Origin: Nitrospirota bacterium
GTDB taxonomy: Bacteria > Nitrospirota > UBA9217
DNA length: 12,534 nt
Direction: 5' to 3'
NCBI GenBank assembly: GCA_029858565.1
Contig: JAOUEV010000080.1
Coordinates: 1 to 12,534, forward strand
Part shown: piece after piece, positions 185 through 12,534 of the stretch
Layout of the letters: the number at the start of each line of letters is the position of its first letter
Position numbering within the stretch: the stretch's first letter is position 1
Program-made: the position numbers and the translations under genes
Notes under the pieces: model-generated
Database searches by the model: none
Seen by the model: only the letters and a program-made list of their open reading frames with translations
What the model was told of the DNA's origin: nothing

Positions 185-3100
185 CTACTGGATGCCGTAC
201 CCCAGGGTCTTGTACGCTTCCAAGGCCGCCGCGGACCCCGCGTTCCGCACCATCACCTTGACCGTATAGGTCCCTGCCGTGAGGCCGGTCGTGTCCCAAT
301 TCCATGCAGCATCAGTGCTGTATTCCCGGCCAATGGTCCACTTCGTATCCGTGCTGAGTTTGTACAGGTACTTGTACTCATAGGTCCCGGAACCGCCCTG
401 GCCCGTCGCTGTCAGGGGGACCAGAATCCCTGCAGGCTGCGGCCCGCGCAGCAGCGCCGTGATCGTGGCTCCTGTGGCAGGCGCACTCTCCACAAGGGAG
501 CAGCTTGCGGTCACGTAGGCCTCGACGCCGGCAACAGAGCCAGCGTTCCGGACCATGACCTTCACCGTGTACACGCCCGCCAGCCGTCCGGCGGTCTCCA
601 AGGTCCAGGCGTTCTGCAGCTCATAGTCCCTGCCCAGGCTCCACTTCGTGTCCGTGCTGAGCTTGTACAGGTACTTGTACTCATAGGTCCCGGAACCGCC
701 GCTGCCGGCCGCGGTGAAGAGGATCGGCGTGCCGATAATCTGGGCGCCCGATGGATTGACGGTCACGGCCACGGCTTCCGCCGGTGTCGTCTCGCTCAGC
801 GCGACCGCCATGGTCGCCGAGGCATCGAAGGGCATACCGCTGCCCAGGCTCCGCGCCTGCACCTGGACAGTGTACGTGCCTGCCGGCCACCAGGCGCTGT
901 TCAGGAAGTCCCAGGTGAAGGTCGGATTCACCTTATAGTCCTGCAGCAGAACCCAGCGGGCATCGCCGTCGCGCTTGATCAGGAACTGATACTCGTACGT
1001 GCCTGTCCCTCCCTGGGCAGCAGCGGTGAATGTCATGTTCCCAATAGACCGAAGGACCGGCATCGCCCGATCAGCGCCGAGGTCCACTGACGCCGCAGGA
1101 AGGACATTTGCAATGATGATCTCGCTTGTAGCGACAGCATCATACTCCGTCCGGTTACCCCAGCTCCGGACCATGGCCTTCACCGTGTATCTCCCCGGAG
1201 GCATGTTGGTAACGGACCAGAGAACGGAGGATTGTCCGCCCAGATACTCCTGCAGCACGGTCCAACGGACATCTGTGCTGCTCTTCACCAGGAAGCGGTA
1301 CTCGTAGCCTCCCTCGCCGCCCTGGGCGGTCGCCGTGAGCGTCACATTCCCGACCGCGCGCAGCACCGGGCTGGGCTGGTCAATGGACAGGGCGACCGAT
1401 GCGGCAGGGGTGATCGAGTAGATCACGTACTCCTTCGCATCCATGGCATCATACTCCGTGCCGCTGCCATCGCTGTTGCGAGCAAGCACCTGGACCGCAT
1501 AGGTCCCATCGGGTGTTGCTGCCGCCGAGCTAGTGTCCCAGTACCAGGTTCCGTTCTGCTGGTAGAAAGCGCTCGTTGCAACCTGGCGGCCAGACGCGGC
1601 ATGTTTCACGATGAAAAGGTATTCAGCAGGACCGGTCCCGCCCTGCGCGTTCGCCGCGAACTGGATCGATCCCCGCTGCGCAGGGCTCTGAACAGGGGAA
1701 GAGAGAGAGACCGACGTCACCGGAACATTGTCCGCAATGATGAAGGGCATGTCGGTCAGGACATCGTACTCCGTGCCGCTGCCCACGCTCCGGGCCTGGA
1801 CGCGGACCAGGCATGATCCCGCCGGCCACTGGTTGTAATCGTAGGGATACCAGAAGAAAGATGGGTCGGCACCATAGTCCCGGACCGTTGTCCAGGCCAG
1901 GGTCTTTGCCGAACGTACGAGATAGCGGTACTCGTAGCTCCCGCTCCCTCCCTGGGCTGCTGCGGTGAAGGTGATCACGCCCCGCTGTGCCGGGCTCGGC
2001 ACATCCGAGGACAGAGTCACGGCCGTTGTCGGCGCTGCATCGGATATGACAAAGGGCATCTCTGACAGCGCGTCATAGTCCGTGCCGCTGCCCATGCTCC
2101 GGGCCAGCACGCGGACCAGGTAGTTCCCGGGCTGTGCCGGCGACCAGGTAAGCACATTGCCAGCCCAGCTGTTGGCAGCGGGAATGCCTGACACGATGTT
2201 TCCGGCGCTGTCCCGGACGGAGAACTGATATTCATAATTCCCTGCGCCGCCCGCTGCCTGCGCGGTCAGCGTGACCGGCCCCTGGGAGCGGATCCAGGGG
2301 CTTGGCCGGTCAGCCATGAGGCTTACCGACGTTGCCGGCGTCACCTCGGACCAGGTAAAGGACATGGACGAGGTGACGTCGTAATTGGGGTCGTTGAACT
2401 GTCGGCTCCCCAGGGTCCTGGCAAAGGCCTGGACCGTATAGGTGCCGGCTCTCGAAGGGACCCAGCCCAGGCTGTTCCAATCCTGCCAGTGCGAACCCCA
2501 GCCGGGATAATCAGCGGGCGCAGCGAACATCACCGTGCCGCTGCTGTCCCTCACCTCGAACCGATATTCATAGGATCCCCACCCTCCCAGAGCCTCAGCT
2601 ACAAAGGACACCATGCCCTCACCATTGCCGTCAGACCGGTTCCAGGGACTCGGCCGGTTCGCCGAGAGGCTGAGCATGGTCGCAGGCTCCTCGTCGCTCC
2701 AGACAAAGGTGGTGGTCGCCGTCACATCGTAATACCTGCTGTCATTCTCGTAGGCTGGGCTTACAGTCCTGACAAAGACCTGGATCGAATATCTGCCAGC
2801 CTTGCTCGGTGTAAAAGCGAAGGTGTTCCAGGGCACCCATTCCCGTTCGTAGGGCAGATAATAGGTTCTCTGGTATACGACATTCCCTTCGCTGTCCTTC
2901 ACGATAAAGCGGTAGTCGTATCCGCCGATGCCGCCAGAAGCATGAGCCGTAAAGGTCACCACAGGTCCCTGGCGGAGCTGGGGCGACGGCAGGTCCGGGA
3001 TGAGGCGCAGGGACGTGGCCGGTTCCATATCGGACCAGGTATAAGACAGGGTCCGGCTCACATCATAGGAATCGTCACTCGGCTGCCTGCCGGCTGACCG

Positions 3101-6100
3101 GGCAAGGACCTGGACCGAGTAGTTCCCGTATTTGCCAGGGGACCAGATGAACGCGTTCGTCCCTGACCAGCCCTGCATCGGCATAACCGCTGCGACCGCG
3201 CCTGCGCTGTCCCGTGCTATGAACCGGTATTCATAGGCATTAGCGCTGGAACCCGAGGCCTGTGCAGTGAACGTCACCGCCTCACCGTAGCGATAGTGCG
3301 GGCTCGGATAGTTCGGGATCAGGCTCACGCCTGTCGCAGGCTCGCTGCTTCCTGACCAGGTAAAGCTTATGGCCTCGGAAACATCATAGGACGCATCATT
3401 CAGCGGACGCCAGCCGGACCGTGCCTGCACTTCGATGCTGTAAGTCCCTGCTCTCCAGGCCGACCAGGAGAAGGTGTTCGTTGGAGAGAACGGCATGTCC
3501 GAAGGATAGTTGCTTGCTGAATCGTAATAGAGCCGTCCCTCGGCATCCTTCACCAGGAACCGGTATTCTGCATATCCATATGCAGAACCGAACGGCTGGG
3601 CAGTAAAGGTCACCAGGGAGCTGCTGGCAACAGGACTTGCCTGGTCCGCTGTCAGGCTGACCCTCATCACAGGCTCGTCATTGTTTGCCCAGGTGAATTC
3701 CAAGAAATCTGCAGCCTCATAGGTATCATCGCCAGGCAGCCAGGAACTATATTGCCGGGCGAATACCTGGACCCGGTAGGTACCGGCCTTCCAGGGAGAC
3801 CAGGAGAGCGTTGACGTTCCTGACCAGGACGGTTGAGGAGCATGCACGACGTTCCCCTTGCTGTCCGTCACGACAAACCGATACTCATATCCACCCCAAT
3901 CAGGATACGGCTCTGCTTTGAACAGGACCTGATAGCCATAAGAGACCGGGCTTACACGATCCGCTGTCAAAGCAATCCGCTTCAGATTTTCGTTTCTTGT
4001 CCAGGTAAAGCTCAAGGACTTCGAAACATCATAGCTGTCGTCATACTGTTGAGGGTTTCCGATCCCCCGGGTATAGGCCGTGATGGTGTACTGTCCAGCC
4101 TGCTCCCACGCTACGGGCGACCAGATGATGGTGTTGGTTGCAGACCATATGCCCGGCCCCTGCTGGGAGTCGTATACCACGTTCCCCTTGGCATCCTTCA
4201 CCACGAACCGGTATTCGAAGCTCGAAGTATAGGGGCTCGATGCCTGGGCAGTGAACTGGACCGGCCTGTTGTACGATACGGGGCCGGCGAGGTCCGAGGT
4301 CAGGACAAGGGATGTTGCCGGATCGATGTCGGTCCAGGTGAAGGAGGTTGCCGAGGTCACGTCGTAATTGGCGTCCTCGGCCAGCCTGCCGCCCATGCTT
4401 CTCGCGAACACCTGCAGAGCGTATTTCCCCGCACGCGCGGGCTTCCAGGAGAACGAGTTGTTCGTGGTCCAGGGATTGGAGGGCTGGTCCACGGAGGTGT
4501 AGACAACAGCGCCGGTGCTGTCCAGGACCTGGTACCTGAACTCGTATCCGGTCATGCTGCCGGTTGCCACAGCAGCAAAGTTCACCGGTCCCTCGGTCAT
4601 CCGTTGGGGGCTCGGCCGGTCCGGCACCATGCTTACCGATCTGGCTGGTTCGCTGTCCGTCCAGGTGAACTCCAGCGAATCAGAGGCCTCAGAGAACGGA
4701 TCGTAGGATGAAAGACCGCTGAGTGTGCGGGCCATCACGATGATCGTGTACGTGCCTGCCTTGGGAGGCGTCCAGGAGAACCCCGCGTCGGTCTTCCAGG
4801 GGATGTCCCAGTTAGGCACCGGATCGATCGTGACGCCGGTGCTGTCCTTCAGCAGGAACCGGTATTCGAATGAAGAACCATTGTCACTCCAGGCCTGTGC
4901 GCCGAAGGTCGTTGACCCGTAACCCCTGGACCGCGGACTGGGCTGGTCCGCCCAGATGCTCACTGACTTGACAGGCCCATTGTTCGACCAGGTGAATTCC
5001 ATGGCATCAGACACGTCAAAGGAATCATCACCAATCTCACGGCCGCCGAACTGGACGCGCGCCTTGACCTGGATGACAAACCGCCCCGCAGACTGTGGAC
5101 CCCAGAATAATCCGCTCTCCAGGGACCACGGATGCTCTGCACCCGGAAGCGGATACACGACCGTCCCGCTCCCATCGACCACCTGGTACTTGTATTCATA
5201 AGGCCCTGTGGATCCGGTGGCCTGCGCCCAGAAACCCACCTGCTGCGGGGGAGCAGGGCTGGGTCCCAGCATGTTCGCTGTCAGGACCACGGACCTCGCA
5301 GGATCATAATCGGTCAGGGTGAAGGATAGGGTTTCCTTGACATCATACGCGGTCCCGCTTCCCACGCTGCGCGCCATGGCCAGGATGGTATAGTTGCCCG
5401 GCTTGCCGGGGTCGAGGGCAAGCACTGCCATTTCCGGACCGAGATTGACCCAGCCGTTCTGGAAAGGGTCGCTGCTCGGCACGACCTTGCCGGCGCTGTC
5501 CTTCACTACGAACCGGTATTCGTAGGTGCCATCGCCGCCATGGGCTTGCGCGGAAATGAGAGGCGTGCCCAGGAACCGGTTCCAGGGGCTTGGCAGGTCC
5601 GCTGAAAGGCTGAGCGATGTGGCAGGGCGGACCTGCGACCAGGTGAAAACCATGCTCCTGGTCACATCGTATCCATTGTCCCCGGGCTGCCTGCCAGGGG
5701 TCCTGGCGAGGACCTGGACCGTGTAGGTTCCCGGCTGATCAGGGGTCCATGAAAGGGTCGTCAGCGTACAGTACCGCTGCCACTCCATGGTACCCTGCTG
5801 GGGAACGATCGTGGCGCCGGAGCTGTCCTTGACAATGTACCCGTACTCATAATCACAGGAGTTCCCTCCATAGGCCTGTGCCGTAAAGTTCACTGCCTGC
5901 GGCCAAAGGACCGGGCTGGCGACGTTCGTCTCCAGGGTCAGCGCCTTTGCCGGCTCGAGCTCCGTCCAGGTGAACGGAAGCGACTGCATCACGTCGTACT
6001 CGGTCCCGCTCCCGATGGCCCGGGCAAGCACCTGGATCGTGTAGGTCCCTGCCGGCGAGGCATACCAGTTGGAGAAGGGCTGCCCCTGACCCAGGGCCAT

Positions 6101-9100
6101 CCAGGAACCCGGCTCCGGATAGGAATAGACGATCGCGCCGGCAGCGTCCTTCACCCGGAACTGGTATTCAAAGCCGGAGGGCCCGTTGCCGTATGCCTGG
6201 GCCGTGAAGATCACGGTCTGGCCCTGCATCAGCGGTGAGGGACGCTCCGATGCCAGCGTCAGGAGCGTCGCCGGTGGCATATCAGCGATCACGAGGTACA
6301 CGGTCTTCGACACATCAGCGGACGTGGAATTCCCCGCGCTCCGCGCCTGCACCTGGATGGAGTACCGGCCTGCCGGCCACTGGAGCGCGTCGACGGCGTC
6401 CCAGGTCCAGAATCCGTTCGGATCGTACTCCCTCGCCACGGTCCAGTCCGCTGCAGCGCTGTGCTTCACCAGGAACCGGTATTCGTAGGCCCCGGTGCCT
6501 CCCTGCGCGGCCGCGGTGAACCCGATCTGACCGCGCATGGTCGGGCTCGTCGACGTTGTCGTCAGGTCCACACCTGTTGCCGGAGGCAGAAGCATGAGGA
6601 GGTAGCCCATGCTCTTGGACGTTTCCGAAGAGGCGGCAGATCCGGTGTTCCGCACCTGCACCATGATGGTGTAGAGGCCGGGCTCGCCGCTGCTCGTATC
6701 CCACAACCAGGTATTGAGCGAGGAATACTGCTGCATTGTCGTCCAGACCGTTGCACCCGGCCCCTTCAGCTGGAAGCGGTATTCATAGGACCCGCTGCCG
6801 CCGGCACCTGCCGCCGTGAACAGTATCGAGGTCCCCATCGGCTGCGGGCTCCTGAGATCGGAAACCAGCGTTGCCGCCGTGGCAGGAGCCTCGGTCACGA
6901 GCACGGCTGCGATCGTTGCCGACGCCTCCATGGATGCCGCGGAGCCCGCGTTCCGTACCATCACCTTTACGCTATAGACGCCGGCCGCGATACCGGTCGT
7001 GTCCCAGGTCCAGGCATTCTGGGGATCGTACGGCCGGCCCACGGTCCACTTCGCATCCGTGCTGAGCTTGTAGAGGAACTGGTACTCGTAGGTCCCTGAT
7101 CCGCCGCTGCCCGAAGCCGTGAAGATGAGCGGCGTGCCGATCATCTGCACCCCTGTCGGACTTGCCGAGAGCGCAGCACCGGTCGCGGGCGCCTCGGTCA
7201 CCAGGGAGCAGCTTGCGGTCGCATACGCTTCCTGGGAAGCAGTGGATCCGGCGCAGCGAACGGACACCTTTACCGTGTACACCCCCGGCGTAGCGCCGGC
7301 CGTGTCCCAGGTCCAGGTATTGGGGGAAGCATAGTCCCGCACCAGGGTCCACTTGGCATCAGTGCTCAGCTTGCGGTAGAACCGGTATTCATACGTTCCG
7401 GATCCGCCGTTGCCCTGCGCCGTGAAGGTGAGCGGCGTACCGACGACCTGCGCGCCTGCGGGACTCGCCGCAAGGGTCGCTGACGCCGCCACAAGGGAAT
7501 AGACCTCGCTCGCGACCCGCTGTTCCAGATTGCCAGCCGCATCAATGGACCGGAACTTCAGCGTTGCTGTCCCGTCAATGGTTATCGGTCCCGTATAGCG
7601 GGCTGAGCTTTGTGTCGGCTCCGATCCATCGACCGAATAATAGGTTTCCGCGCAACCGCTGCCGGCCACGTCCAGGCACGTGAGCACCACATTCTGCGGC
7701 GCAGTATAGCTACCGCCGGCTGGCGACGCCGTGGTCACCGGCGCTGCGGCATCCTGCCTGACCGCCATGCTCACCACCGGCTCGATGCCGCCGCCATTGT
7801 CCGCAGAGTAGAACCGGACATACTGGACGCACGAGCTGCCCGCGGCGCAGGTGACCGTGAGCGGCCCGGCGTAGGCGCTGGTCGGCGTACAGGTGCCGGA
7901 GCTGTCGATGCAGACCCGGGGGTAGCCGGCAGCGATCCCGGTCCCGGAGCGGTCCGTGGCGGACAGGCTTACCGCCACGGTGCCGAGAGCTGTCCAGGTG
8001 CCGAACCGGTAACCCGCCGCGCTCGCCAGGGTCGTGGGCAGGGTATTCTGATAACCATACACCGAGCTCCGCACGCCGGCAAAGACCGTCTGGTCGGATG
8101 CATAGGTCGGGGGCACCATGACCGCGAACGCCGAAAGGTTCGCAAGCCCCGTGTTCATCGCACTCCAGCTTCCCCCGTCATTCACGCTCTTATAGATGCC
8201 GCCATTGTCCGTGGCAGCGTAGACTGTGTGGTCCGAACCGTATGCCGGGGAAAGATGCATGCTCCGCACGGTCTGGCTCCCGAGGCCCGTGTTCGACAGG
8301 GTCCAGCTCAGTCCGTTATCAATGCTCTTGAGGATGATGCCGTTGCTGTTGCCCGCGTAGATCGTCCGGTCCGCTGCGTAGTCCGGCGACACCGCAAGCG
8401 CCATCGCCTCGACGTTCGCGAGCACTGTGGACCAGTTCGAGCCTCCGTCCGTGCTCCGGTAGAGAGCCCCGTTGCCGAAGGAACCGGCAAAGACCGTGCG
8501 ATCATTCGCAAAATCCGGCGAGATGGCCAATGCCTTCATGGTCGCGGTCCCGCTCCCCGCGTTCACGGCGCTCCAGGTGGCGCCGCCGTCTGTGCTCCGG
8601 AACACCCCCGCAGAACTGGTGGCGGCAAAGACGGTCTGGTCGCTTACGTAGGCCGGCGAGATCGTCACCCCATAGACGAAGAGACCCGTGAGGCCGGTGT
8701 TCGTGCTGGTCCAGGTGACGCCGCCGTCCGTGCTCTTGAACACCCCGCCGCCGTTCGTGCCGGCGAACACGGTGCGGTCGTACGCATAGTCCGGCGAGAA
8801 GGCGATCGCATGGACCGGGCTGTTCGTGATGCCGGCGCCCGAATCGCTCCAGCTCACGCCGCCGTCCGTGCTCCGGTAGATGCCGGCCCCGCCGTTCGTG
8901 CCCGCGAGGATCGTGCGGTCCGTGGCATAATCCGGTGATGACGCGAGCGAATAGACATGCAGGTTCGTGAGACCCGCAGCAGTCCGGACCCAGTTCGCGC
9001 CGCGGTCCGTGCTCTTGTGCACACCGCCGCCGGTGCTGGAGCCGGCAAACAGGATATGGTCCGTTGCATGCGCCGGCGACGTCGCGAGGGCGCGGATGTT

Positions 9101-10060
9101 CAGATCGGTGATCCCCGTGTTGATCGCGCTCCAGGCGGCGCCGCGGTCCGTGCTCTTGAACACCCCGCTCGTCGTTCCGGCGTAGATCATCTGATCGGCA
9201 GCATACCCGGGGGAGATCGCGAACGCATAGACGGTCTGGTTCGTCAGGCCCGTATTCACGGCGCTCCAGGCTGCGCCGCCGTTCGTGCTCCGGAACACGC
9301 CGCCGCCCAGCGAGGCTGCGAACAGGGTCCCGTCAGCGGCGAAGTTCGGCGAGAGAGCGACGGCGAATATCCGCAGGTTCGTGATGCCGCTGTTCACCGC
9401 GGTCCAGTTCGCTCCTGCGTTCGTGCTTTTCCGTACGCCGTAACCGTTCGTTCCAAGGTAGATCGTCTGGTCCGTCGAAAAAACGGGTGACAGGGCAATC
9501 GAGTAGACCGCCGCCCCGGGGTTATACACGAAGCTCCAGCTCGCCCCGCCGTTTACGCTCTTATAGACGCCATTTTCCGTTCCCGCATAGATCGTCTGGT
9601 CCGTCGCATAGTTCGGGGAAAGGGTGAGCCCGTAGATGCGCTTGTCCAGCGTTCCGCCATTTACGGCGCTCCACGTAGCGCCGCCGTCCGTGCTCTTGAA
9701 CACCCCGCCGGTGCTCCCCCCTGCGAAGACGGTCTGGTCCGTCTGGTAGCCGGGCGAGAGAGCAAGTGCCCGGATATAGAGATCCGTGATCCCCGTGGAA
9801 GCAAGGCTCCAGGTCACGCCCCCATCGACACTCTTGTAGACGCCGTTGGAATACGTACCTGCGAAGAGCGTCTGATCGTTGGCGTAGGCCGGCGATACAG
9901 CCAGGGCATAGGTATATGCGCCGTAAGGTCCGGTCGTTGTCCACTGGTTCGCTCCGGCCATGGCTGTTTGCGGCACGAGAGCAAAGGCAACGACGATGGA
10001 CAGTAACAAAAGGACACCCATGATGCGTCTTCTCTTCCCTGCGACCACAACTCGGCTCAT
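185..10060 (-). CDS. Giant secreted/surface protein (~3291 aa): signal peptide, 14-blade Asp-box (BNR) beta-propeller region, two beta-sandwich linker domains, 23 Y_Y_Y/Ig-like repeats; probable adhesin or surface-matrix protein
   Basis: Uninterrupted 9.9-kb ORF with clearly modular translation. ATG at 10060 is preferred over the adjacent TTG at 10063 because AGGGGG (10074-10069) lies 8 nt upstream. There is a promoter upstream and a terminator downstream. Function is inferred from architecture only. Confidence 0.93.
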   Translation of the reverse strand: MSRVVVAGKRRRIMGVLLLLSIVVAFALVPQTAMAGANQWTTTGPYGAYTYALAVSPAYANDQTLFAGTYSNGVYKSVDGGVTWSLASTGITDLYIRALALSPGYQTDQTVFAGGSTGGVFKSTDGGATWSAVNGGTLDKRIYGLTLSPNYATDQTIYAGTENGVYKSVNGGASWSFVYNPGAAVYSIALSPVFSTDQTIYLGTNGYGVRKSTNAGANWTAVNSGITNLRIFAVALSPNFAADGTLFAASLGGGVFRSTNGGAAWSAVNTGLTNQTVYAFAISPGYAADQMIYAGTTSGVFKSTDRGAAWSAINTGITDLNIRALATSPAHATDHILFAGSSTGGGVHKSTDRGANWVRTAAGLTNLHVYSLASSPDYATDRTILAGTNGGAGIYRSTDGGVSWSDSGAGITNSPVHAIAFSPDYAYDRTVFAGTNGGGVFKSTDGGVTWTSTNTGLTGLFVYGVTISPAYVSDQTVFAATSSAGVFRSTDGGATWSAVNAGSGTATMKALAISPDFANDRTVFAGSFGNGALYRSTDGGSNWSTVLANVEAMALAVSPDYAADRTIYAGNSNGIILKSIDNGLSWTLSNTGLGSQTVRSMHLSPAYGSDHTVYAATDNGGIYKSVNDGGSWSAMNTGLANLSAFAVMVPPTYASDQTVFAGVRSSVYGYQNTLPTTLASAAGYRFGTWTALGTVAVSLSATDRSGTGIAAGYPRVCIDSSGTCTPTSAYAGPLTVTCAAGSSCVQYVRFYSADNGGGIEPVVSMAVRQDAAAPVTTASPAGGSYTAPQNVVLTCLDVAGSGCAETYYSVDGSEPTQSSARYTGPITIDGTATLKFRSIDAAGNLEQRVASEVYSLVAASATLAASPAGAQVVGTPLTFTAQGNGGSGTYEYRFYRKLSTDAKWTLVRDYASPNTWTWDTAGATPGVYTVKVSVRCAGSTASQEAYATASCSLVTEAPATGAALSASPTGVQMIGTPLIFTASGSGGSGTYEYQFLYKLSTDAKWTVGRPYDPQNAWTWDTTGIAAGVYSVKVMVRNAGSAASMEASATIAAVLVTEAPATAATLVSDLRSPQPMGTSILFTAAGAGGSGSYEYRFQLKGPGATVWTTMQQYSSLNTWLWDTSSGEPGLYTIMVQVRNTGSAASSETSKSMGYLLMLLPPATGVDLTTTSTSPTMRGQIGFTAAAQGGTGAYEYRFLVKHSAAADWTVAREYDPNGFWTWDAVDALQWPAGRYSIQVQARSAGNSTSADVSKTVYLVIADMPPATLLTLASERPSPLMQGQTVIFTAQAYGNGPSGFEYQFRVKDAAGAIVYSYPEPGSWMALGQGQPFSNWYASPAGTYTIQVLARAIGSGTEYDVMQSLPFTWTELEPAKALTLETNVASPVLWPQAVNFTAQAYGGNSCDYEYGYIVKDSSGATIVPQQGTMEWQRYCTLTTLSWTPDQPGTYTVQVLARTPGRQPGDNGYDVTRSMVFTWSQVRPATSLSLSADLPSPWNRFLGTPLISAQAHGGDGTYEYRFVVKDSAGKVVPSSDPFQNGWVNLGPEMAVLALDPGKPGNYTILAMARSVGSGTAYDVKETLSFTLTDYDPARSVVLTANMLGPSPAPPQQVGFWAQATGSTGPYEYKYQVVDGSGTVVYPLPGAEHPWSLESGLFWGPQSAGRFVIQVKARVQFGGREIGDDSFDVSDAMEFTWSNNGPVKSVSIWADQPSPRSRGYGSTTFGAQAWSDNGSSFEYRFLLKDSTGVTIDPVPNWDIPWKTDAGFSWTPPKAGTYTIIVMARTLSGLSSYDPFSEASDSLEFTWTDSEPARSVSMVPDRPSPQRMTEGPVNFAAVATGSMTGYEFRYQVLDSTGAVVYTSVDQPSNPWTTNNSFSWKPARAGKYALQVFARSMGGRLAEDANYDVTSATSFTWTDIDPATSLVLTSDLAGPVSYNRPVQFTAQASSPYTSSFEYRFVVKDAKGNVVYDSQQGPGIWSATNTIIWSPVAWEQAGQYTITAYTRGIGNPQQYDDSYDVSKSLSFTWTRNENLKRIALTADRVSPVSYGYQVLFKAEPYPDWGGYEYRFVVTDSKGNVVHAPQPSWSGTSTLSWSPWKAGTYRVQVFARQYSSWLPGDDTYEAADFLEFTWANNDEPVMRVSLTADQASPVASSSLVTFTAQPFGSAYGYAEYRFLVKDAEGRLYYDSASNYPSDMPFSPTNTFSWSAWRAGTYSIEVQARSGWRPLNDASYDVSEAISFTWSGSSEPATGVSLIPNYPSPHYRYGEAVTFTAQASGSSANAYEYRFIARDSAGAVAAVMPMQGWSGTNAFIWSPGKYGNYSVQVLARSAGRQPSDDSYDVSRTLSYTWSDMEPATSLRLIPDLPSPQLRQGPVVTFTAHASGGIGGYDYRFIVKDSEGNVVYQRTYYLPYEREWVPWNTFAFTPSKAGRYSIQVFVRTVSPAYENDSRYYDVTATTTFVWSDEEPATMLSLSANRPSPWNRSDGNGEGMVSFVAEALGGWGSYEYRFEVRDSSGTVMFAAPADYPGWGSHWQDWNSLGWVPSRAGTYTVQAFARTLGSRQFNDPNYDVTSSMSFTWSEVTPATSVSLMADRPSPWIRSQGPVTLTAQAAGGAGNYEYQFSVRDSAGNIVSGIPAANSWAGNVLTWSPAQPGNYLVRVLARSMGSGTDYDALSEMPFVISDAAPTTAVTLSSDVPSPAQRGVITFTAAAQGGSGSYEYRYLVRSAKTLAWTTVRDYGADPSFFWYPYDYNQWPAGSCLVRVQARSVGSGTEYDVLTDMPFIIADNVPVTSVSLSSPVQSPAQRGSIQFAANAQGGTGPAEYLFIVKHAASGRQVATSAFYQQNGTWYWDTSSAAATPDGTYAVQVLARNSDGSGTEYDAMDAKEYVIYSITPAASVALSIDQPSPVLRAVGNVTLTATAQGGEGGYEYRFLVKSSTDVRWTVLQEYLGGQSSVLWSVTNMPPGRYTVKAMVRSWGNRTEYDAVATSEIIIANVLPAASVDLGADRAMPVLRSIGNMTFTAAAQGGTGTYEYQFLIKRDGDARWVLLQDYKVNPTFTWDFLNSAWWPAGTYTVQVQARSLGSGMPFDASATMAVALSETTPAEAVAVTVNPSGAQIIGTPILFTAAGSGGSGTYEYKYLYKLSTDTKWSLGRDYELQNAWTLETAGRLAGVYTVKVMVRNAGSVAGVEAYVTASCSLVESAPATGATITALLRGPQPAGILVPLTATGQGGSGTYEYKYLYKLSTDTKWTIGREYSTDAAWNWDTTGLTAGTYTVKVMVRNAGSAAALEAYKTLGYGIQ
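188..7490 (-). repeat. 23 tandem ~100-110-aa Y_Y_Y (triple-tyrosine)/Ig-like beta-sandwich repeats
   Basis: Recurring pattern PAxxxxLxxxxxSP...FTAxAxGGxGxYEYRF...W...W.P..xGxYxxxVxxR, with 23 copies of the YEYRF-like motif counted in the translation. The family name is assigned by motif resemblance. Confidence 0.82.
7495..8047 (-). other. Two Cys-containing beta-sandwich linker domains (Fn3-associated / chitobiase C-terminal-like)
   Basis: APVTTASPAGGSY...VVLTC.D..GSGC..TYYSVDGSEPT..S..YTGPITI..T.TLKFRSIDAAGNLE matches the CHB_HEX_C_1/Fn3_assoc pattern. The preceding unit has a related ending (YVRFYSADNGGGIE) and four Cys. Boundaries are approximate. Confidence 0.7.
8048..9950 (-). repeat. 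14 tandem ~46-aa Asp-box/BNR beta-propeller blades (likely two 7-bladed propellers)
   Basis: Consensus xALAxSPxYAxDxTxFAGTxxGGVFKSTDGGxxWxxxNxGLT, with 13 full copies counted by eye plus a 14th lacking its last strand. The N-terminal NQWTTTGP could supply that strand. DNA-level repeats such as CCGTGCTCTTGAACACCCCG occur near 8730, 9150 and 9690. Confidence 0.88.
9956..10060 (-). other. Sec-type (SPase I) signal peptide
   Basis: MSRVVVAGKRRR (basic n-region), IMGVLLLLSIVVAFALV (hydrophobic h-region), PQTAMA|G (A-x-A cleavage site); no lipobox Cys. Confidence 0.8.
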
Positions 10061-10270
10061 CAACTGATCCCCCTATGCCAAGAATTCATGGACCACCTGC
10101 AGGCTGTTCCATGCCCTCGAAAACAGTGCTTGTTACGAAGCAGGTCCTGTCACGAAGCGCTCAGTATCGTTATCGTTCAGCGCATATTCCGTTCTTCGAT
10201 AAAGGAAAAAAACCGGGTATTCATCCTTTCACCTTTGTCGGGAAGGATGTGCCCTGATATTGCAATTGCA

Positions 10271-10299: not shown

Positions 10300-10389
10300 G
10301 TTCTATCAGGGATGTTGCAGGGTATTTTTCGGGCAGGAAAAAAGGTGACACCAAAAAGATGGGTGCATTATAGTGCAACAGGGAGCAAG

Positions 10390-12021
10390 TCAGGTTTTCG
10401 TTACAGTCTTCTTATACGCCCCCTGAATCTCCTCGAACGCCGTCATCGCGGCCATGGATCCCTGGGCAACGGCGACCACGATCTGCTTCATGCCGCCGGT
10501 GATATCGCCGGCAGCGTAGACAAAAGGAAGTGCCGTGCGCATGGTGGTGAGGTCCGTCTTGATATAACCTTCCGGCGAGAGTTCGAGGCCGAGCATCCGG
10601 GCGATCTCGGTGTTCGGCACATAGCCGATAGCCACGAACAGGCCGTCGGCATCGACCTCCATGGTCTTGCCTTCTTTCGTGTTCTCGATCTTGAGGGACC
10701 TGACGGACTTGTCGCCCTTGACCTCCCGCACTTCGCTGTTCCAGAGGATCGGAATGCCGGTCTGCTTCAGGCTCTCCTGCAACCTCGCTTCAGCGCGCAG
10801 GCTTTCCTTCCAGTGCACCAGCGTCACTTTTGCGCCAAGGTTGTGCAGATAGAGCGCGTCGGTCACCGCGGTGTTGCCGCCGCCGACGACATATACCTTC
10901 TTCCCTTCCTTGAAAAAGTAGCCGTCGCAGGTAGCGCAGTAGGAGACCCCTTTGCCGTAGAACTTCTGCGCTCCCGGCGCAGGGAGCGCGCGGTTGCCCA
11001 CGCCGGTCGCGATGACCAGCCCCTTGGTAATGTAAATCCCCTGGCTGGTCTTGAGGTAGTACTTGCCGTCCTGCTTGTCCCGCTTCACCTCGAGCACCTG
11101 CTCGCCCTGGTGGATCTCGGAATACTGGGCAGCCTGCTGGGCGATCAGGTCCACCAGGCTCTTGCCGCCGATGCGCATGAAACCGGGGTAGTTCTCCACC
11201 AACGGAGTAATGGCGATCTGACCGCCGAGGGTGGCCTTCTCGATCACCACGCAATCAAGGCCGGCGCGAGTAGCGTAGATAGCAGTGGTCAGACCGGCCG
11301 GTCCCCCGCCGATTATCACCAGGTCCTTTTCCTGCGGTTCGCCGGAGATCTGCGCGGTGTCACCCTGCGGTTCCTTGAGCGTAAAAAGCGATTCAAGGAA
11401 CCACGGCTCAGGCTGGAGTCCGGCGCCGGTGAACCGGTCGTTGATCATGGTCTGGGGAACCGCTGTGGAGCCCAGCTTGTCGGCAAGATCCTTGTTCTCG
11501 TAGATCTCGACAGTCTCGGCGGAAACGAACTCCGGTCTCGCGACCGCGGCGGACATGGCAGCAAGGACCTGCTGCGGACAATAAGGTCAGGTGGGACTGA
11601 CAAAGACCTGGATATGACGCCTGTCGCGGAGTTCGGCGATCTTTTTTAATCCCGGTTCGGACAGAACGCTTTTGCCGGTTGACGCCATCATGATGGCGAG
11701 CAGTAGGGACCTGCCTTCTTCGCCCACAGGCGCGCCGGTGAACCGGAGGCTATATTTGTCCGGTGCGATCAGGATCGTAGGCGACCGGGTCACATTGCGC
11801 TTGTTCGCATGGTCGTCGCCTACCATGTGGTAGGAGACCTTGAGCTTGTCTGTCAGGCCTGCAAGGGTCTTGATCAGCCGGATCACCGCGTCGTTGTACT
11901 GGTCGTTCATCCCCGCCAGCGTGTAGACCTCGATGGCCACGTCGTCCTTCATGTTGTTGAAGAAGGTCTCTTTGATCGTCTTCTTGACTTCGTCGGATAT
12001 GAGCTCGTGCTCTTCGGCCAT
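10390..12021 (-). CDS. Selenocysteine-containing thioredoxin reductase fusion (PDO/AhpF N-terminal-like double Trx fold with UPYC, plus TrxB-type FAD disulfide reductase), 543 aa; TGA at 11589-11587 read as Sec
   Basis: ORFs 11587..12021 and 10390..11556 are in the same frame and separated only by TGA, giving IQVFVSPT-U-PYC-PQQVLAAMSAA, a Trx-fold CxxC with the first Cys encoded by TGA. A SECIS-like hairpin lies 11 nt downstream. There is a strong RBS (GAGGTGA) before ATG 12021. The reductase part has GGGPAG, CATC, GGGNTA and YAAGD motifs. Confidence 0.9.
11558..11575 (-). promoter_or_regulatory. Bacterial SECIS element
   Basis: UGA + 11 nt (CCUUAUUGUCC) + GCAGCAGGUCCUUGCUGC. GCAGCA pairs with UGCUGC around a GGUCCU apex. 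The spacing and the GCAGGUC apex resemble the E. coli fdhF SECIS. Confidence 0.78.
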
Positions 12022-12054
12022 GGGATCACCTCAGTACAAGTCTACGTATTTTTC

Positions 12055-12088
12055 TTTGCCACGGATGAACACGGATAGACACGGATAC
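12055..12088. repeat. Left inverted-repeat arm with three 10-bp-periodic CACGGAT units
   Basis: TTTGCCACGGATGAACACGGATAGACACGGATAC, with CACGGAT at 12060, 12070 and 12080; directly abuts the GxxExxY stop codon. Confidence 0.9.
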
Positions 12089-12457
12089 CTAAAACACCAG
12101 ACGCTTCCATTCAAGCCTTGGCTTTCCGAAATTAAGCAAGAGACCAACCTTCATGCCAGTTGCTTTCAGATAATTGACCAACTGAGCCTCATGTTCGCCG
12201 GAGAGCGTCTTTGCAGACTTAAGTTCCAGCACAACCTGTCCTTCCACGACAATATCCGCGTAAAAATCGCCCACGGTTTGTCCGCGAAACAGAACCTTGA
12301 GCGGAACCTGTTCTTGGACATCCAACCCGGCCTGCTGGAACGCAATAACAAGTGCCTTGTGATACACACTTTCGAGGAAGCCGTGCCCCAGCTCATTCAA
12401 CACTTCGAAGCTGACTCCCAGTATCTTCTCGGTCAATTTCTCATGATGCAAGGTCAT
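12089..12457 (-). CDS. GxxExxY protein (PD-(D/E)xK nuclease superfamily), 122 aa
   Basis: ELGHGFLESVY signature (G-F-L-E-S-V-Y), catalytic-type ADIVVEGQVVLELKS (D...ExK), HEAQLVNYLKAT and GLLLNFG; length is typical of the family. Confidence 0.92.
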   Translation of the reverse strand: MTLHHEKLTEKILGVSFEVLNELGHGFLESVYHKALVIAFQQAGLDVQEQVPLKVLFRGQTVGDFYADIVVEGQVVLELKSAKTLSGEHEAQLVNYLKATGMKVGLLLNFGKPRLEWKRLVF

Positions 12458-12462
12458 GTGCT

Positions 12463-12487
12463 TCTATCCGTGTGTATCCGTGGCAAA
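12463..12487. repeat. Right inverted-repeat arm with two ATCCGTG units
   Basis: TCTATCCGTGTGTATCCGTGGCAAA. Its reverse complement TTTGCCACGGATACACACGGATAGA matches 12055-12079 at 23/25 positions. It lies 5 nt from the GxxExxY start codon. Confidence 0.9.
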
Positions 12488-12534
12488 TCGGCATTGTGTC
12501 TCGCTCTTCCATCCTGAGCACTTGGCTACTTTAT

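What the first reader, a model, noticed from the sequence alone, without database searches (positions are those of the whole stretch)
12055..12487. Minimal nuclease cassette: GxxExxY gene bracketed by inverted repeats made of 10-bp-periodic CACGGAT units
Seen: 25-bp inverted repeats (23/25 identical) enclose a 369-bp gene. The left arm, extended by a third unit, touches the stop codon, and the right arm is 5 nt from the ATG. Each arm is an array of CACGGAT spaced one helical turn apart (3 units left, 2 right). There is no transposase and no obvious TSD. Known: GxxExxY proteins are PD-(D/E)xK-fold proteins with no well-established function. Inference: this may be a poorly described class of small selfish element in which the phased units are protein-binding sites or the arms pair as a ssDNA/RNA stem, with the nuclease-like protein (or a factor in trans) moving the cassette. 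This is the best candidate for an undescribed system in the window.
Basis: partly seen in the sequence, partly recalled or inferred. Interest (0 to 1): 0.82.

Follow-up and report, generated by a model that had tools for sequence, protein, structure and literature searches.

The report
Hairpin-framed small nuclease gene cassette
A small nuclease-like gene sits between two mirror-image arms built of a repeated 7-letter motif, and it appears to be the gene-carrying member of a widespread, apparently unpublished family of bacterial hairpin repeats whose arm sequence follows the type of nuclease inside.

Summary
Arms of 25 nt (23/25 matching) at 12055-12079 and 12463-12487 enclose an intact 122-aa GxxExxY / PD-(D/E)xK gene (12089-12457, minus strand). 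CACGGAT units lie 10 bp apart, three on the left and two on the right.

- **Site:** the cassette sits in the spacer between an isochorismatase-family gene and a selenoprotein PDO-thioredoxin-reductase gene. None of 19 relatives has the gene there, but at least 8 carry other short-unit arrays in that spacer.
- **Genome:** 130 array-built hairpins were found, 99 of them gene-less. All 7 GxxExxY genes and 4 of the 5 four-helix-bundle genes checked lie inside such arms.
- **Arms follow the protein clade:** 64 of 80 homologous loci from many phyla have arms, mostly of GAT-ending units 9-10 bp apart (Mantel rho 0.46, 0/999 permutations).
- **Co-occurrence:** within one bacterial family, genomes without the genes have next to no arrays.
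- **Mechanism tests:** no target duplication, no G-U bias, and loops unrelated between copies.

Best reading: a REPIN/RAYT-like, IVS-like element whose nuclease recognises its own arm units. Mobility and binding are inferred, not shown.

This scan has met the cassette type before on other DNA (58 earlier notes). My searches found no published description.

The parts
12055..12088 (.). Left arm (3' side of the gene): the 25-nt inverted-repeat arm 12055-12079, extended by a third unit. CACGGAT units at 12060-12066, 12070-12076 and 12080-12086.
12089..12457 (-). GxxExxY / PDDEXK_3 gene: 122 aa, intact, with the family-invariant G24, E29, Y32, D68, E78, K80, Q92, N109 and F110 (42-sequence alignment; G26 is also invariant among the genome's 7 paralogues).
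   Evidence: TIGR04256 at 142.9 bits (cut-off 35) and PF13366 at 139.7 bits (cut-off 22). Alignments. AF2 model with pLDDT 93.8.
12463..12487 (.). Right arm (5' side of the gene), with two ATCCGTG units at 12466-12472 and 12476-12482. A 98%-identical metagenome contig carries one extra 10-nt unit here.
12488..12525 (-). 38-nt spacer between the stop codon of the upstream isochorismatase-family gene and the cassette.
12526..12534 (-). Last codons (I K stop) of the upstream gene, cut by the contig end. The orthologous gene in relatives is an isochorismatase-family gene.
12022..12054 (-). 33-nt spacer with the ribosome-binding site of the downstream gene, left untouched by the cassette.
10390..12021 (-). 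Downstream host gene: a PDO domain fused to thioredoxin reductase, with an in-frame TGA at codon 145 in a U-P-Y-C motif (probable selenocysteine). It is a neighbour, not part of the element.

Best explanation
This is the gene-carrying member of a family of inverted-repeat ('hairpin') elements whose arms are arrays of short, iteron-like units.

Shown:
- Gene and arms form one heritable unit that has crossed phyla.
- The arm unit sequence tracks the protein clade.
- Gene-less hairpins with the same arms are dispersed in the same genome.
- Arrays and genes co-occur across genomes.
- The gene is almost always co-oriented with the upstream host gene, and no promoter-like site was found here.

Inferred:
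- The 122-aa PD-(D/E)xK protein recognises its own CACGGAT-type units, as conserved cores at fixed spacing with free linker bases.
- Through cleavage and repair it keeps and spreads the arms, in the way RAYT transposases relate to REPINs.
- The gene is expressed by read-through from the host operon.
- In that transcript the arms can pair into a stem of about 22 bp closing the cassette, as in the intervening sequences of 23S rRNA.
For: - **Family membership and intact catalytic D68, E78, K80:**. The fold is closest to Cas4, lambda exonuclease and Hjc nucleases.
- **All paralogues are framed:** all 7 GxxExxY genes and 4 of the 5 four-helix-bundle genes inspected in this genome are framed by inverted short-unit arrays; the fifth, on C47, shows an array on one side only (by eye; formally detected for most).
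- **Arm families match gene copies:** gene-carrying copies use CACGGAT (this copy, C115), CGCAAAG (C142b), CACGAAG (C100) and CACAGAG/CGCAGAG (C142a, C62). The same units make up 6, 28, 11 and 8 hairpins of the census.
- **Homologues in other phyla:** 64 of 80 loci have arms above the 95th percentile of 283 shifted controls. GAT-(6-7 nt)-GAT occurs in 46 of those 64, but in 0 of 27 four-helix-bundle cassettes and 0 of 6 cassettes of two other GxxExxY clades.
- **Arm similarity rises with protein identity:** Mantel Spearman rho 0.46, 0 of 999 permutations as high, 89 cassettes.
- **Co-occurrence in family f1 (27 genomes):** 20 of 20 with CACGGAT arrays have GxxExxY hits. Of the 7 without arrays, 6 lack GxxExxY, lack four-helix-bundle genes (one weak hit in G110) and show 0-2 TGCGG-array hits, against 24-199 in 13 others. 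The split recurs inside three genera.
- **Fixed chirality:** 55 pairs with loops of 200 nt or less have the purine-rich arm first, and 0 are the other way round.
- **Orientation:** the upstream host gene is on the same strand in 63 of 74 loci.
- **Foreign composition:** cassette GC is 49.4%, neighbours 59.6-62.7%.
- **Unit number varies:** a 98%-identical contig has one extra 10-nt unit in the right arm.
- **RNA pairing:** in the fold the arms pair and close the cassette (-158.7 kcal/mol, z -2.98).
Against: - No biochemical datum exists for any GxxExxY protein. The one survey I found lists the function as unknown (PMC3424549, passage seen).
- Four-helix-bundle genes, which have no nuclease fold, sit in the same kind of arms. 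The enzyme that moves or maintains the arms may therefore lie elsewhere.
- There is no sign of recent copying. Loops of same-family hairpins are unrelated (CGCAAAG: 26 loops of 23-127 nt, SW median 13 against 12 for shuffles). Only 8 of 77 loops hit anything else in the genome; 4 of these are two loci assembled twice at contig ends, and 2 are one hairpin pair with truly homologous loops.
- The only near-identical strain seen (run X2) has the cassette at the same site, so no presence/absence polymorphism was caught.
- Exceptions to co-occurrence: G015 has 4 GxxExxY hits but no CACGGAT arrays. G010 has 134 TGCGG-array hits but no four-helix-bundle hit (90% complete). G007 has 44 CACGGAT-array hits while its closest homologue of the window protein is broken by stops.
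- Related genomes are not independent samples, so the counts and the Mantel test overstate significance.
Confidence: 0.5

Rival explanations
1. Purely RNA-level, IVS-type element. The arms matter only as a double-stranded RNA stem that RNase III cuts, releasing the cassette from the operon transcript. The gene is a selfish passenger and does not act on the arms.
For: The arms pair and close the cassette in the predicted RNA fold. The hairpins lie in transcribed spacers: of 99 short ones, 61 sit between co-directional genes, 15 between convergent genes and only 6 between divergent genes. They also fill most spacers of a seven-tRNA cluster. The gene is co-oriented with the upstream gene in 63 of 74 loci. 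ORF-bearing 23S rRNA IVSs have the same stem-plus-ORF layout and are cut by RNase III (PMC4990558, passages seen).
Against: There is no excess of G-U over A-C mismatches on the sense strand in 61 co-directional hairpins (48 vs 38, p = 0.33). A stem needs only complementarity, yet unit cores are conserved across phyla and follow the protein clade. The chirality is fixed at 55 to 0. This reading could still be true in addition to a DNA-level mechanism.
Confidence: 0.2
2. The arrays are host elements: binding sites of a nucleoid or global regulator protein, or REP-like mRNA stabilisers. GxxExxY genes would simply tend to land or survive in hairpin loops.
For: Paired inverted arrays of tandem 7-8-nt repeats at variable distance were described in Geobacter metallireducens and proposed to be IHF/HU or global-regulator sites (PMC2700814, passages seen). 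Cyanobacterial STRR hairpins of 7-bp repeats between operon genes have been proposed to stabilise transcripts (PMC2670836, passage seen). Arms stay conserved while loops are free, which fits a maintained function. The same spacer carries arrays in at least 8 of 19 relatives.
Against: Arm units follow the clade of the enclosed gene across phyla, which a loop-landing model does not predict. Six genomes of the same family lack both gene families and have next to no arrays. Many unit families coexist in one genome, which would need many regulators.
Confidence: 0.12
3. Classical cut-and-paste miniature transposon (MITE-like) moved by a transposase encoded elsewhere, with GxxExxY as cargo.
For: The arms look like terminal inverted repeats with sharp outer boundaries across 26 copies of one family. 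Gene-less copies far outnumber gene-carrying ones.
Against: There is no target-site duplication of 3 bp or more in about 100 copies. Loops differ in length and sequence between copies, unlike MITEs, which are copied whole. The arms track the enclosed gene's clade.
Confidence: 0.06
4. Defence or toxin-type gene, with the flanking repeats incidental.
For: Weak partial PADLOC hits: PDC-M36A at E 2.7e-4 and a 'control protein' at E 4.3e-4.
Against: The hits are marginal and partial. There is no partner gene inside the arms and no PHROG match. The cassette sits in housekeeping operon spacers in many phyla.
Confidence: 0.04

Closest known systems
REPIN / RAYT systems (REP doublets with REP-associated tyrosine transposases; PMC3116915 and PMC3337134, abstracts seen in the listing)
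   Same: A small gene is framed by its own palindromic repeats, many gene-less hairpin copies lie in intergenic DNA of the same genome, there are few gene copies per repeat family, and there is no target duplication.
   Different: The enzyme has a PD-(D/E)xK fold and is not a Y1/HUH transposase. The arms are arrays of 2-4 short units, not a single REP. Loop length and sequence are not conserved between copies. A second, non-nuclease gene type (four-helix bundle) occupies the same kind of arms.
ORF-bearing intervening sequences (IVS) of 23S rRNA (Coxiella burnetii, Leptospira; PMC4990558, passages seen)
   Same: A cassette of about 0.4-0.5 kb with terminal inverted repeats that form a stem of roughly 25-28 bp around one small ORF, lying inside a transcribed host unit.
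   Different: This one lies in an mRNA spacer, not in helix 25/45 of 23S rRNA. Its ORF is GxxExxY, not the S23p / four-helix-bundle type. RNase III cutting is untested here, and the sense strand shows no G-U bias.
Paired tandem-repeat 'global regulator binding sites', classes 1-3, of Geobacter metallireducens (PMC2700814, passages seen)
   Same: Inverted pairs of four or five tandem 7-8-nt repeats at variable distance, in dozens of intergenic places.
   Different: They were interpreted as IHF/HU or regulator sites, with other unit sequences, and the main text makes no link to an enclosed gene.
STRR (short tandemly repeated repetitive) sequences of heterocystous cyanobacteria (PMC2670836, passage seen; Vioque 1997 seen only as a reference title)
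   Same: Tandem units of about 7 bp that form hairpins between co-transcribed genes, with function unknown.
   Different: A different phylum and different units, and the passage I saw names no associated protein. Whether STRRs belong to the same element class is untested.

Membership tests
GxxExxY protein (NCBIfam TIGR04256) / Pfam PDDEXK_3 (PF13366) | Profile score above the curated cut-off over the full model length | tested here: met
   TIGR04256 at 142.9 bits (cut-off 35), model positions 2-116 of 116. PF13366 at 139.7 bits (cut-off 22).
GxxExxY protein (NCBIfam TIGR04256) / Pfam PDDEXK_3 (PF13366) | G-x-x-E-x-x-Y motif and the D...E-x-K catalytic residues of the PD-(D/E)xK fold | tested here: met
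   The window protein has G26, E29 and Y32. E29, Y32, D68, E78 and K80 are invariant in alignments of 7 and 42 sequences; G26 is invariant in the first and present in at least 90% of the second. The model is an alpha-beta core matching Cas4, lambda exonuclease and Hjc.
23S rRNA intervening sequence (IVS) | Inserted in a 23S rRNA helix | tested here: not met
   It lies between two protein-coding genes.
23S rRNA intervening sequence (IVS) | Terminal inverted repeats forming a stem around one small ORF | tested here: met
23S rRNA intervening sequence (IVS) | Excision by RNase III | not testable with these tools
   No RNA run holds the stretch.
REPIN / RAYT | Encoded Y1 (HUH) tyrosine transposase | tested here: not met
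   The protein matches only PDDEXK_3 / TIGR04256.
REPIN / RAYT | Gene framed by the same palindromic repeats that are dispersed gene-less in the genome | tested here: met
REPIN / RAYT | Gene-less copies replicated as whole units with conserved spacing | tested here: not met
   Loops are 23-127 nt and unrelated within one family.
DDE-type transposon / MITE | Target-site duplication flanking terminal inverted repeats | tested here: not met
   No direct repeat of 3 bp or more above expectation in about 100 hairpins.
Hairpin-bounded GxxExxY / four-helix-bundle cassettes as noted earlier by this scan (no published name found) | Small gene of one of the two families between inverted arrays of short units, in an operon spacer, with gene-less copies elsewhere | tested here: met
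   Earlier notes served as leads only.

The most novel reading that the evidence does not exclude
GxxExxY nucleases would be the missing enzymes behind a whole class of bacterial intergenic hairpin repeats built from tandem 7-10-nt units. That class would include Geobacter's 'global regulator sites', possibly cyanobacterial STRRs and, with the four-helix-bundle partner family, the rRNA intervening sequences. Each nuclease clade would read its own unit as an iteron. Arms stay near-identical while loops are unrelated, so the arms would be actively maintained or rewritten in place, for example by cleavage and templated repair, and not copied as whole elements. That would be a mode of repeat propagation distinct from both transposition and REPIN copying.
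Probability: 0.25. Interest if true: 0.85.

Novelty: new variant of a known kind. Interest (0 to 1): 0.64.

Why it matters
Short hairpin repeats fill operon spacers in many bacteria; this genome has at least 130. For most of them no enzyme, origin or function is known. If the small GxxExxY nuclease recognises and maintains the arms that frame it, three things follow. A very large protein family of unknown function gains a testable role. Repeats described piecemeal, such as the paired tandem-repeat sites in Geobacter and perhaps STRRs, gain a common explanation. And the old question of where ORF-bearing rRNA intervening sequences come from becomes approachable. The clade-specific unit code would also give ready-made protein and DNA-site pairs for experiments.

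Tried and rejected
- **RNA evidence:** no RNA holder was listed for window 10300-12534, so expression and processing could not be examined.
- **Read laying:** joints that skip the gene (12079 to 12465 in X2 with a side of 20 nt; 12086 to 12466 in X3 with 32 other letters between) probably come from other hairpin copies. Depth over the left arm spikes to about 1497 in X3. I do not count these as empty alleles.
- **Complex prediction, two copies of the protein:** no verdict.
- **The search for related loci with alignments A1 and A2:** failed for lack of a conserved stretch. I used the single protein and family searches instead.
- **PDB sequence search:** only a non-significant hit, E 0.57.
- **Other library scans:** PHROGs gave nothing, and PADLOC gave only marginal partial hits.
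- **Promoter scan of 11500-12534:** no sigma-70-like site.
- **Target-site duplication:** none.
- **Sense-strand G-U bias:** none.
- **Loop similarity:** loops compared with each other, with the gene-carrying copy's interior and with the rest of the genome are essentially unrelated. I therefore dropped the ideas that gene-less hairpins are recent whole-element copies or recognisable deletion remnants.
- **Gene landing in unrelated pre-existing hairpins:** rejected, because the arms follow the protein clade.
- **Telomerase-like templated synthesis of the arms:** set aside, because linker bases between the conserved unit cores vary.
- **Automatic repeat detection in relatives' spacers:** conservative. 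4 of 15 spacers beat all shuffles, and 7 of 19 have a TRF array in the last 200 nt, one of them (L010) not counted as a spacer array, against about 0.13 per 200 nt in coding flanks. L018 and others are by-eye calls.
- **Literature:** searches found no description of GxxExxY genes inside repeat arms. One search was swamped by generic terms. Vioque 1997 is not held.
- **Closed supplements:** the files of PMC2700814 (Table S4, Figures S3-S5) may list which genes lie between the paired sites.
Full report
**1. The observation**

The repeat finder gives arms 12055-12079 and 12463-12487: 25 nt, 92% complementary, 383 nt apart.
- The left arm carries CACGGAT at 12060, 12070 and 12080. The right arm carries the complement at 12466 and 12476.
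- The enclosed ORF is 12089..12457 on the minus strand, 122 aa.
- The third left unit ends 2 nt before the TAG stop, and the right arm ends 5 nt from the ATG.
- The heptamer itself is not enriched in the genome (465 found, about 514 expected).
- The phased pair CACGGATNNNCACGGAT occurs 17 times. The pattern read backwards occurs 0 times, here and in all 151 genomes searched.

The description is correct and is not a chance feature.

**2. The gene**

- It scores 142.9 bits on TIGR04256 (cut-off 35) and 139.7 bits on PF13366 PDDEXK_3 (cut-off 22), over the whole model.
- E29, Y32 and the D68...E78-x-K80 residues are invariant, both among the genome's seven paralogues and in a 42-sequence cross-phylum alignment. 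G26 is invariant in the first alignment and present in at least 90% of the second.
- An AlphaFold2 model is confident (pLDDT 93.8, pTM 0.85).
- Its best structural matches are Cas4 SSO0001 (E 3.5e-4, TMq 0.59), lambda exonuclease and the equally small Holliday-junction resolvase Hjc (TM 0.44, 24% identity).
- No solved structure matches by sequence.
- The only paper I found that lists the family gives its function as unknown and notes multiple transfers (PMC3424549, passage).

The gene looks like an intact minimal nuclease.

**3. The site**

The window is a whole contig.
- Downstream on the same strand lies a PDO-domain/thioredoxin-reductase gene with an in-frame TGA in a U-P-Y-C motif.
- The last nine bases of the window read I-K-stop. 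This matches the end of an isochorismatase-family gene that precedes the PDO gene in relatives.
- The spacer is 504 bp here, against 24-157 bp in the 15 relatives where it could be measured.
- The PDO gene was found in 24 of 41 genomes, and 19 relatives' loci were fetched.
- 0 of 19 have a GxxExxY match in the upstream flank held, which is up to 1.5 kb but only 348 bp in L002 and 792 bp in L010.
- Yet the same spacer often holds short-unit arrays. L011, L013, L016 and L020 have inverted repeats above all 20 shuffles (4 of 15 spacers that could be delimited).
- TRF finds arrays in the last 200 nt in 7 of 19, against 0.13 per 200 nt in the coding flanks. One of these, in L010, I do not count as a spacer array.
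- With L018, called by eye, at least 8 of 19 are occupied.
- Three of these have units like those here: a same-genus genome (L008) keeps the PDO-proximal ATCCGTG array but has other units on the far side, L018 has a degenerate CCACGGAT hairpin, and L011 has CACGAAT units.
- The cassette is compositionally foreign: 49.4% GC against 59.6-62.7% in its neighbours.
- A 1049-nt metagenome contig, 98% identical, spans 11449-12487. It has the cassette at the same site, with one extra 10-nt unit in the right arm, making three units on each side.

**4. The genome**

- A TRF-based census found 1787 short arrays. 130 array-built inverted repeats passed the filter of at least 16 matched bases at 80% or more.
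- 99 of the 130 have loops under 200 nt.
- By crude ORF calls, 61 of those 99 lie between co-directional genes, 15 between convergent genes, 6 between divergent genes, 15 inside a called ORF and 2 at contig ends.
- They also fill most spacers of a seven-tRNA cluster.
- Unit families by count: CGCAAAG 28, ATTGCGG 17, CACGAAG 11, AGTGCGR 10, CRCAGAG 8, CACGGAG 7, CACGGAT 6 (two of these are one locus assembled twice), and smaller ones.
- The 5' arm is purine-rich (0.55 or more) in 101 of 130 and below 0.45 in 6.
- With strict patterns, 55 pairs with loops of 200 nt or less have this chirality and 0 have the opposite.

**5. Genes inside hairpins**

- The genome has 7 GxxExxY and 8 four-helix-bundle (TIGR02436) matches.
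- All 7 GxxExxY genes and 4 of the 5 four-helix-bundle genes I inspected are framed by inverted short-unit arrays; the fifth (C47) shows an array on one side only (by eye; most were found formally).
- The paralogues are only 33-46% identical to the window protein, so they are not recent duplicates.
- Their arms differ:
  - CACGGAT type for this copy and C115.
  - A related CCACGGAA type for C14.
  - CGCAAAG type for C142b.
  - CACGAAG for C100.
  - CACAGAG and CGCAGAG for C142a and C62.
- Each of the 8-10-nt families that is abundant as gene-less hairpins therefore has one or two gene-carrying copies, except CACGGAG, for which the only candidate is the related CCACGGAA-type arm on C14.

**6. 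Beyond this genome**

- Eighty loci encoding 46-67% identical proteins came from many phyla: Chloroflexota, Acidobacteriota, Verrucomicrobiota, Bacteroidota, Planctomycetota, Leptospiraceae, Bacteriovoracaceae and others.
- 64 of 80 have flanking inverted arms above the 95th percentile of 283 shifted controls.
- The arms are again arrays, with period 9 in 40 and period 10 in 9 of the 64.
- Their units end in GAT: ACAGGAT, CACGGAT, CGCGGAT or TATGAT types.
- GAT-(6-7 nt)-GAT occurs in 46 of 64. In 16 of 64 it occurs in the inverse orientation, where the gene lies between two complete hairpins, as in L035, L037 and L105. The two counts may overlap.
- The motif is absent from 27 of 27 four-helix-bundle cassettes with arms and from 6 of 6 cassettes of two other GxxExxY clades. 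It is present in 15 of 20 cassettes of the clades near the window copy, and in only 9 of 130 hairpins of this genome.
- In Nitrospirota, 27 of 30 four-helix-bundle loci have arms with period 7 (17 loci), 8 (9) or 12 (1). 26 of 28 GxxExxY loci have arms with period 9-10 (20 loci), 8 (4) or 7 (2).
- Over 89 cassettes, arm 5-mer similarity rises with protein identity: Jaccard 0.025 below 35% identity and 0.345 above 80%. Mantel rho is 0.46, with 0 of 999 permutations as high. Relatives are not independent, but co-divergence is exactly what the test asks about.
- At 55-65% protein identity neutral DNA should be randomised, yet the arms still share words. The arm sequence is therefore constrained, not only its ability to pair.
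- The best matches to the window protein are 65% in a Bacteriovoracaceae MAG, 62% in its own family and 53% in its own genus. This fits horizontal transfer.
- The upstream host gene is on the same strand as the cassette gene in 63 of 74 loci. Both neighbours are co-directional in 39 of the 56 loci where both were called.

**7. Co-occurrence across genomes**

The same 151 Nitrospirota genomes were used for all four searches.
- The CACGGAT pattern is in 23 genomes. 20 of them are among the 27 genomes of the window's own family (plus this genome). Outside that family there are only single hits in two genomes.
- Within the family, all 20 genomes with the pattern have GxxExxY hits (one of them only a fragment).
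- Of the 7 without the pattern, 6 have no GxxExxY hit (completeness 87-100%) and G015 has four.
- The same six lack four-helix-bundle genes, apart from one weak hit at E 8e-4. They show 0-2 hits of a TGCGG-array pattern, against 24-199 in 13 other family members.
- The split recurs inside three genera.
- Exceptions are G015, G010 (134 TGCGG-array hits, no four-helix-bundle hit) and G007 (44 CACGGAT-array hits, closest homologue of the window protein broken by stops).

**8. Tests of mechanism**

- **No target-site duplication:** none of 3 bp or more in about 100 hairpins.
- **Sharp outer ends:** 26 CGCAAAG copies share their terminus while the flanks differ. Inside the arms the unit cores are conserved and the linker bases vary. 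That is the pattern of reiterated protein-binding sites, not of templated repeat synthesis.
- **Loops are unrelated:** in one family they are 23-127 nt with SW median 13, against 12 for shuffles. They show no similarity to the interior of the gene-carrying copy.
- **Loops are unique in the genome:** only 8 of 77 hit anything else. Four of those 8 are two loci assembled twice at contig ends, and 2 are one hairpin pair with truly homologous loops.
- So the gene-less hairpins are not recent whole-element copies. Their arms are kept alike by selection or by some form of conversion, while the loops drift.
- **No RNA-strand signal:** sense-strand G-U mismatches (48) do not exceed A-C mismatches (38) in 61 co-directional hairpins (p = 0.33).
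- **RNA pairing is expected physically:** the fold closes the cassette with the arms (-158.7 kcal/mol, z -2.98).
- **No own promoter seen:** no sigma-70-like site in 11500-12534.

**9. Comparison with what is known**

The layout matches three described things in part.
- **REPIN/RAYT systems** share a gene framed by its own repeats and dispersed gene-less hairpins with no TSD. They differ in having a tyrosine transposase, single REPs and conserved spacing (abstracts).
- **ORF-bearing 23S rRNA IVSs** share the stem plus one small ORF in a transcript, with RNase III excision. They differ in lying in rRNA and carrying a four-helix-bundle ORF (PMC4990558).
- **The paired tandem-repeat sites of Geobacter metallireducens** share the architecture but were read as regulator sites (PMC2700814).
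- Cyanobacterial STRR hairpins are a further possible relative (PMC2670836).
- My searches found no paper that places GxxExxY genes inside repeat arms. Supplements that might bear on this were closed.

**10. Verdict**

- **Shown:** the feature is real. It is one unit of gene plus arms. Its arm sequence follows the protein clade across phyla. Gene-less hairpins with the same arms and fixed chirality populate transcribed spacers. Arrays and genes co-occur among related genomes.
- **Inferred:** the nuclease binds its own units and maintains or spreads the arms. The gene is expressed by read-through. The arms form an RNase III-type stem.
- **The main weakness** is that four-helix-bundle genes share the architecture without a nuclease fold, and no mobility event was caught.

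**11. Earlier notes of this scan**

The scan found this cassette type before on other DNA: 58 notes in at least 55 genomes. Two of them are in this genome, and several draw the REPIN/RAYT comparison. I treated them as leads. My own tests agree with them and add:
- the within-family presence/absence pattern;
- the fixed chirality;
- the unrelated loops;
- the null G-U result;
- the orientation bias;
- the unit-number polymorphism.

Noticed in passing
window 10390-12021 (-): The PDO-domain / thioredoxin-reductase gene has an in-frame TGA at codon 145 inside a U-P-Y-C redox motif, so it is probably a selenoprotein. In most relatives the frame is open for about 550 aa without a stop. This genome and two of its three same-genus relatives have a frame of only 147-178 aa at that point.
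   Followed up: partly
window 185-10063 (-): A single 3292-aa ORF with Y_Y_Y, Sortilin/BNR and chitobiase C-terminal domains fills most of the window. It is presumably a giant surface protein.
   Followed up: partly
G000 contig C14:127864-129313: In a cluster of seven tRNA genes most spacers hold array-built hairpins (TGCGG-type units). A stretch of about 190 bp after tRNA-Arg(TCT) ends with a second copy of that tRNA's 3' end, as if something had integrated there.
   Followed up: no
G000 contig C46:42287-42528: Nested arrangement: an ACAGGAT-type inverted pair with a 202-nt loop encloses a solo three-unit CACGGAT array.
   Followed up: no
L008 (G003), spacer upstream of the PDO gene: A same-genus relative keeps the PDO-proximal ATCCGTG array at the orthologous place. 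On the far side it has a different array, and there is no gene between them, which looks like a gutted or rewritten cassette.
   Followed up: partly
G007:C26:13036-13390: The closest homologue of the window protein in this genome is broken by several stop codons, while the genome carries 44 CACGGAT-array hits. This may be a repeat family that has outlived its gene.
   Followed up: no
L037, L035, L105 (cross-phylum loci): In some homologous loci the gene lies between two complete palindromic hairpins and not between two single arms, much like REP doublets flanking a RAYT gene.
   Followed up: partly
G000 contigs C11 (end) and C57 (start); C136 and C80: Identical hairpins sit at contig ends in pairs of contigs, so these repeats break the assembly. 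The window's own contig also ends 47 nt beyond the right arm.
   Followed up: no
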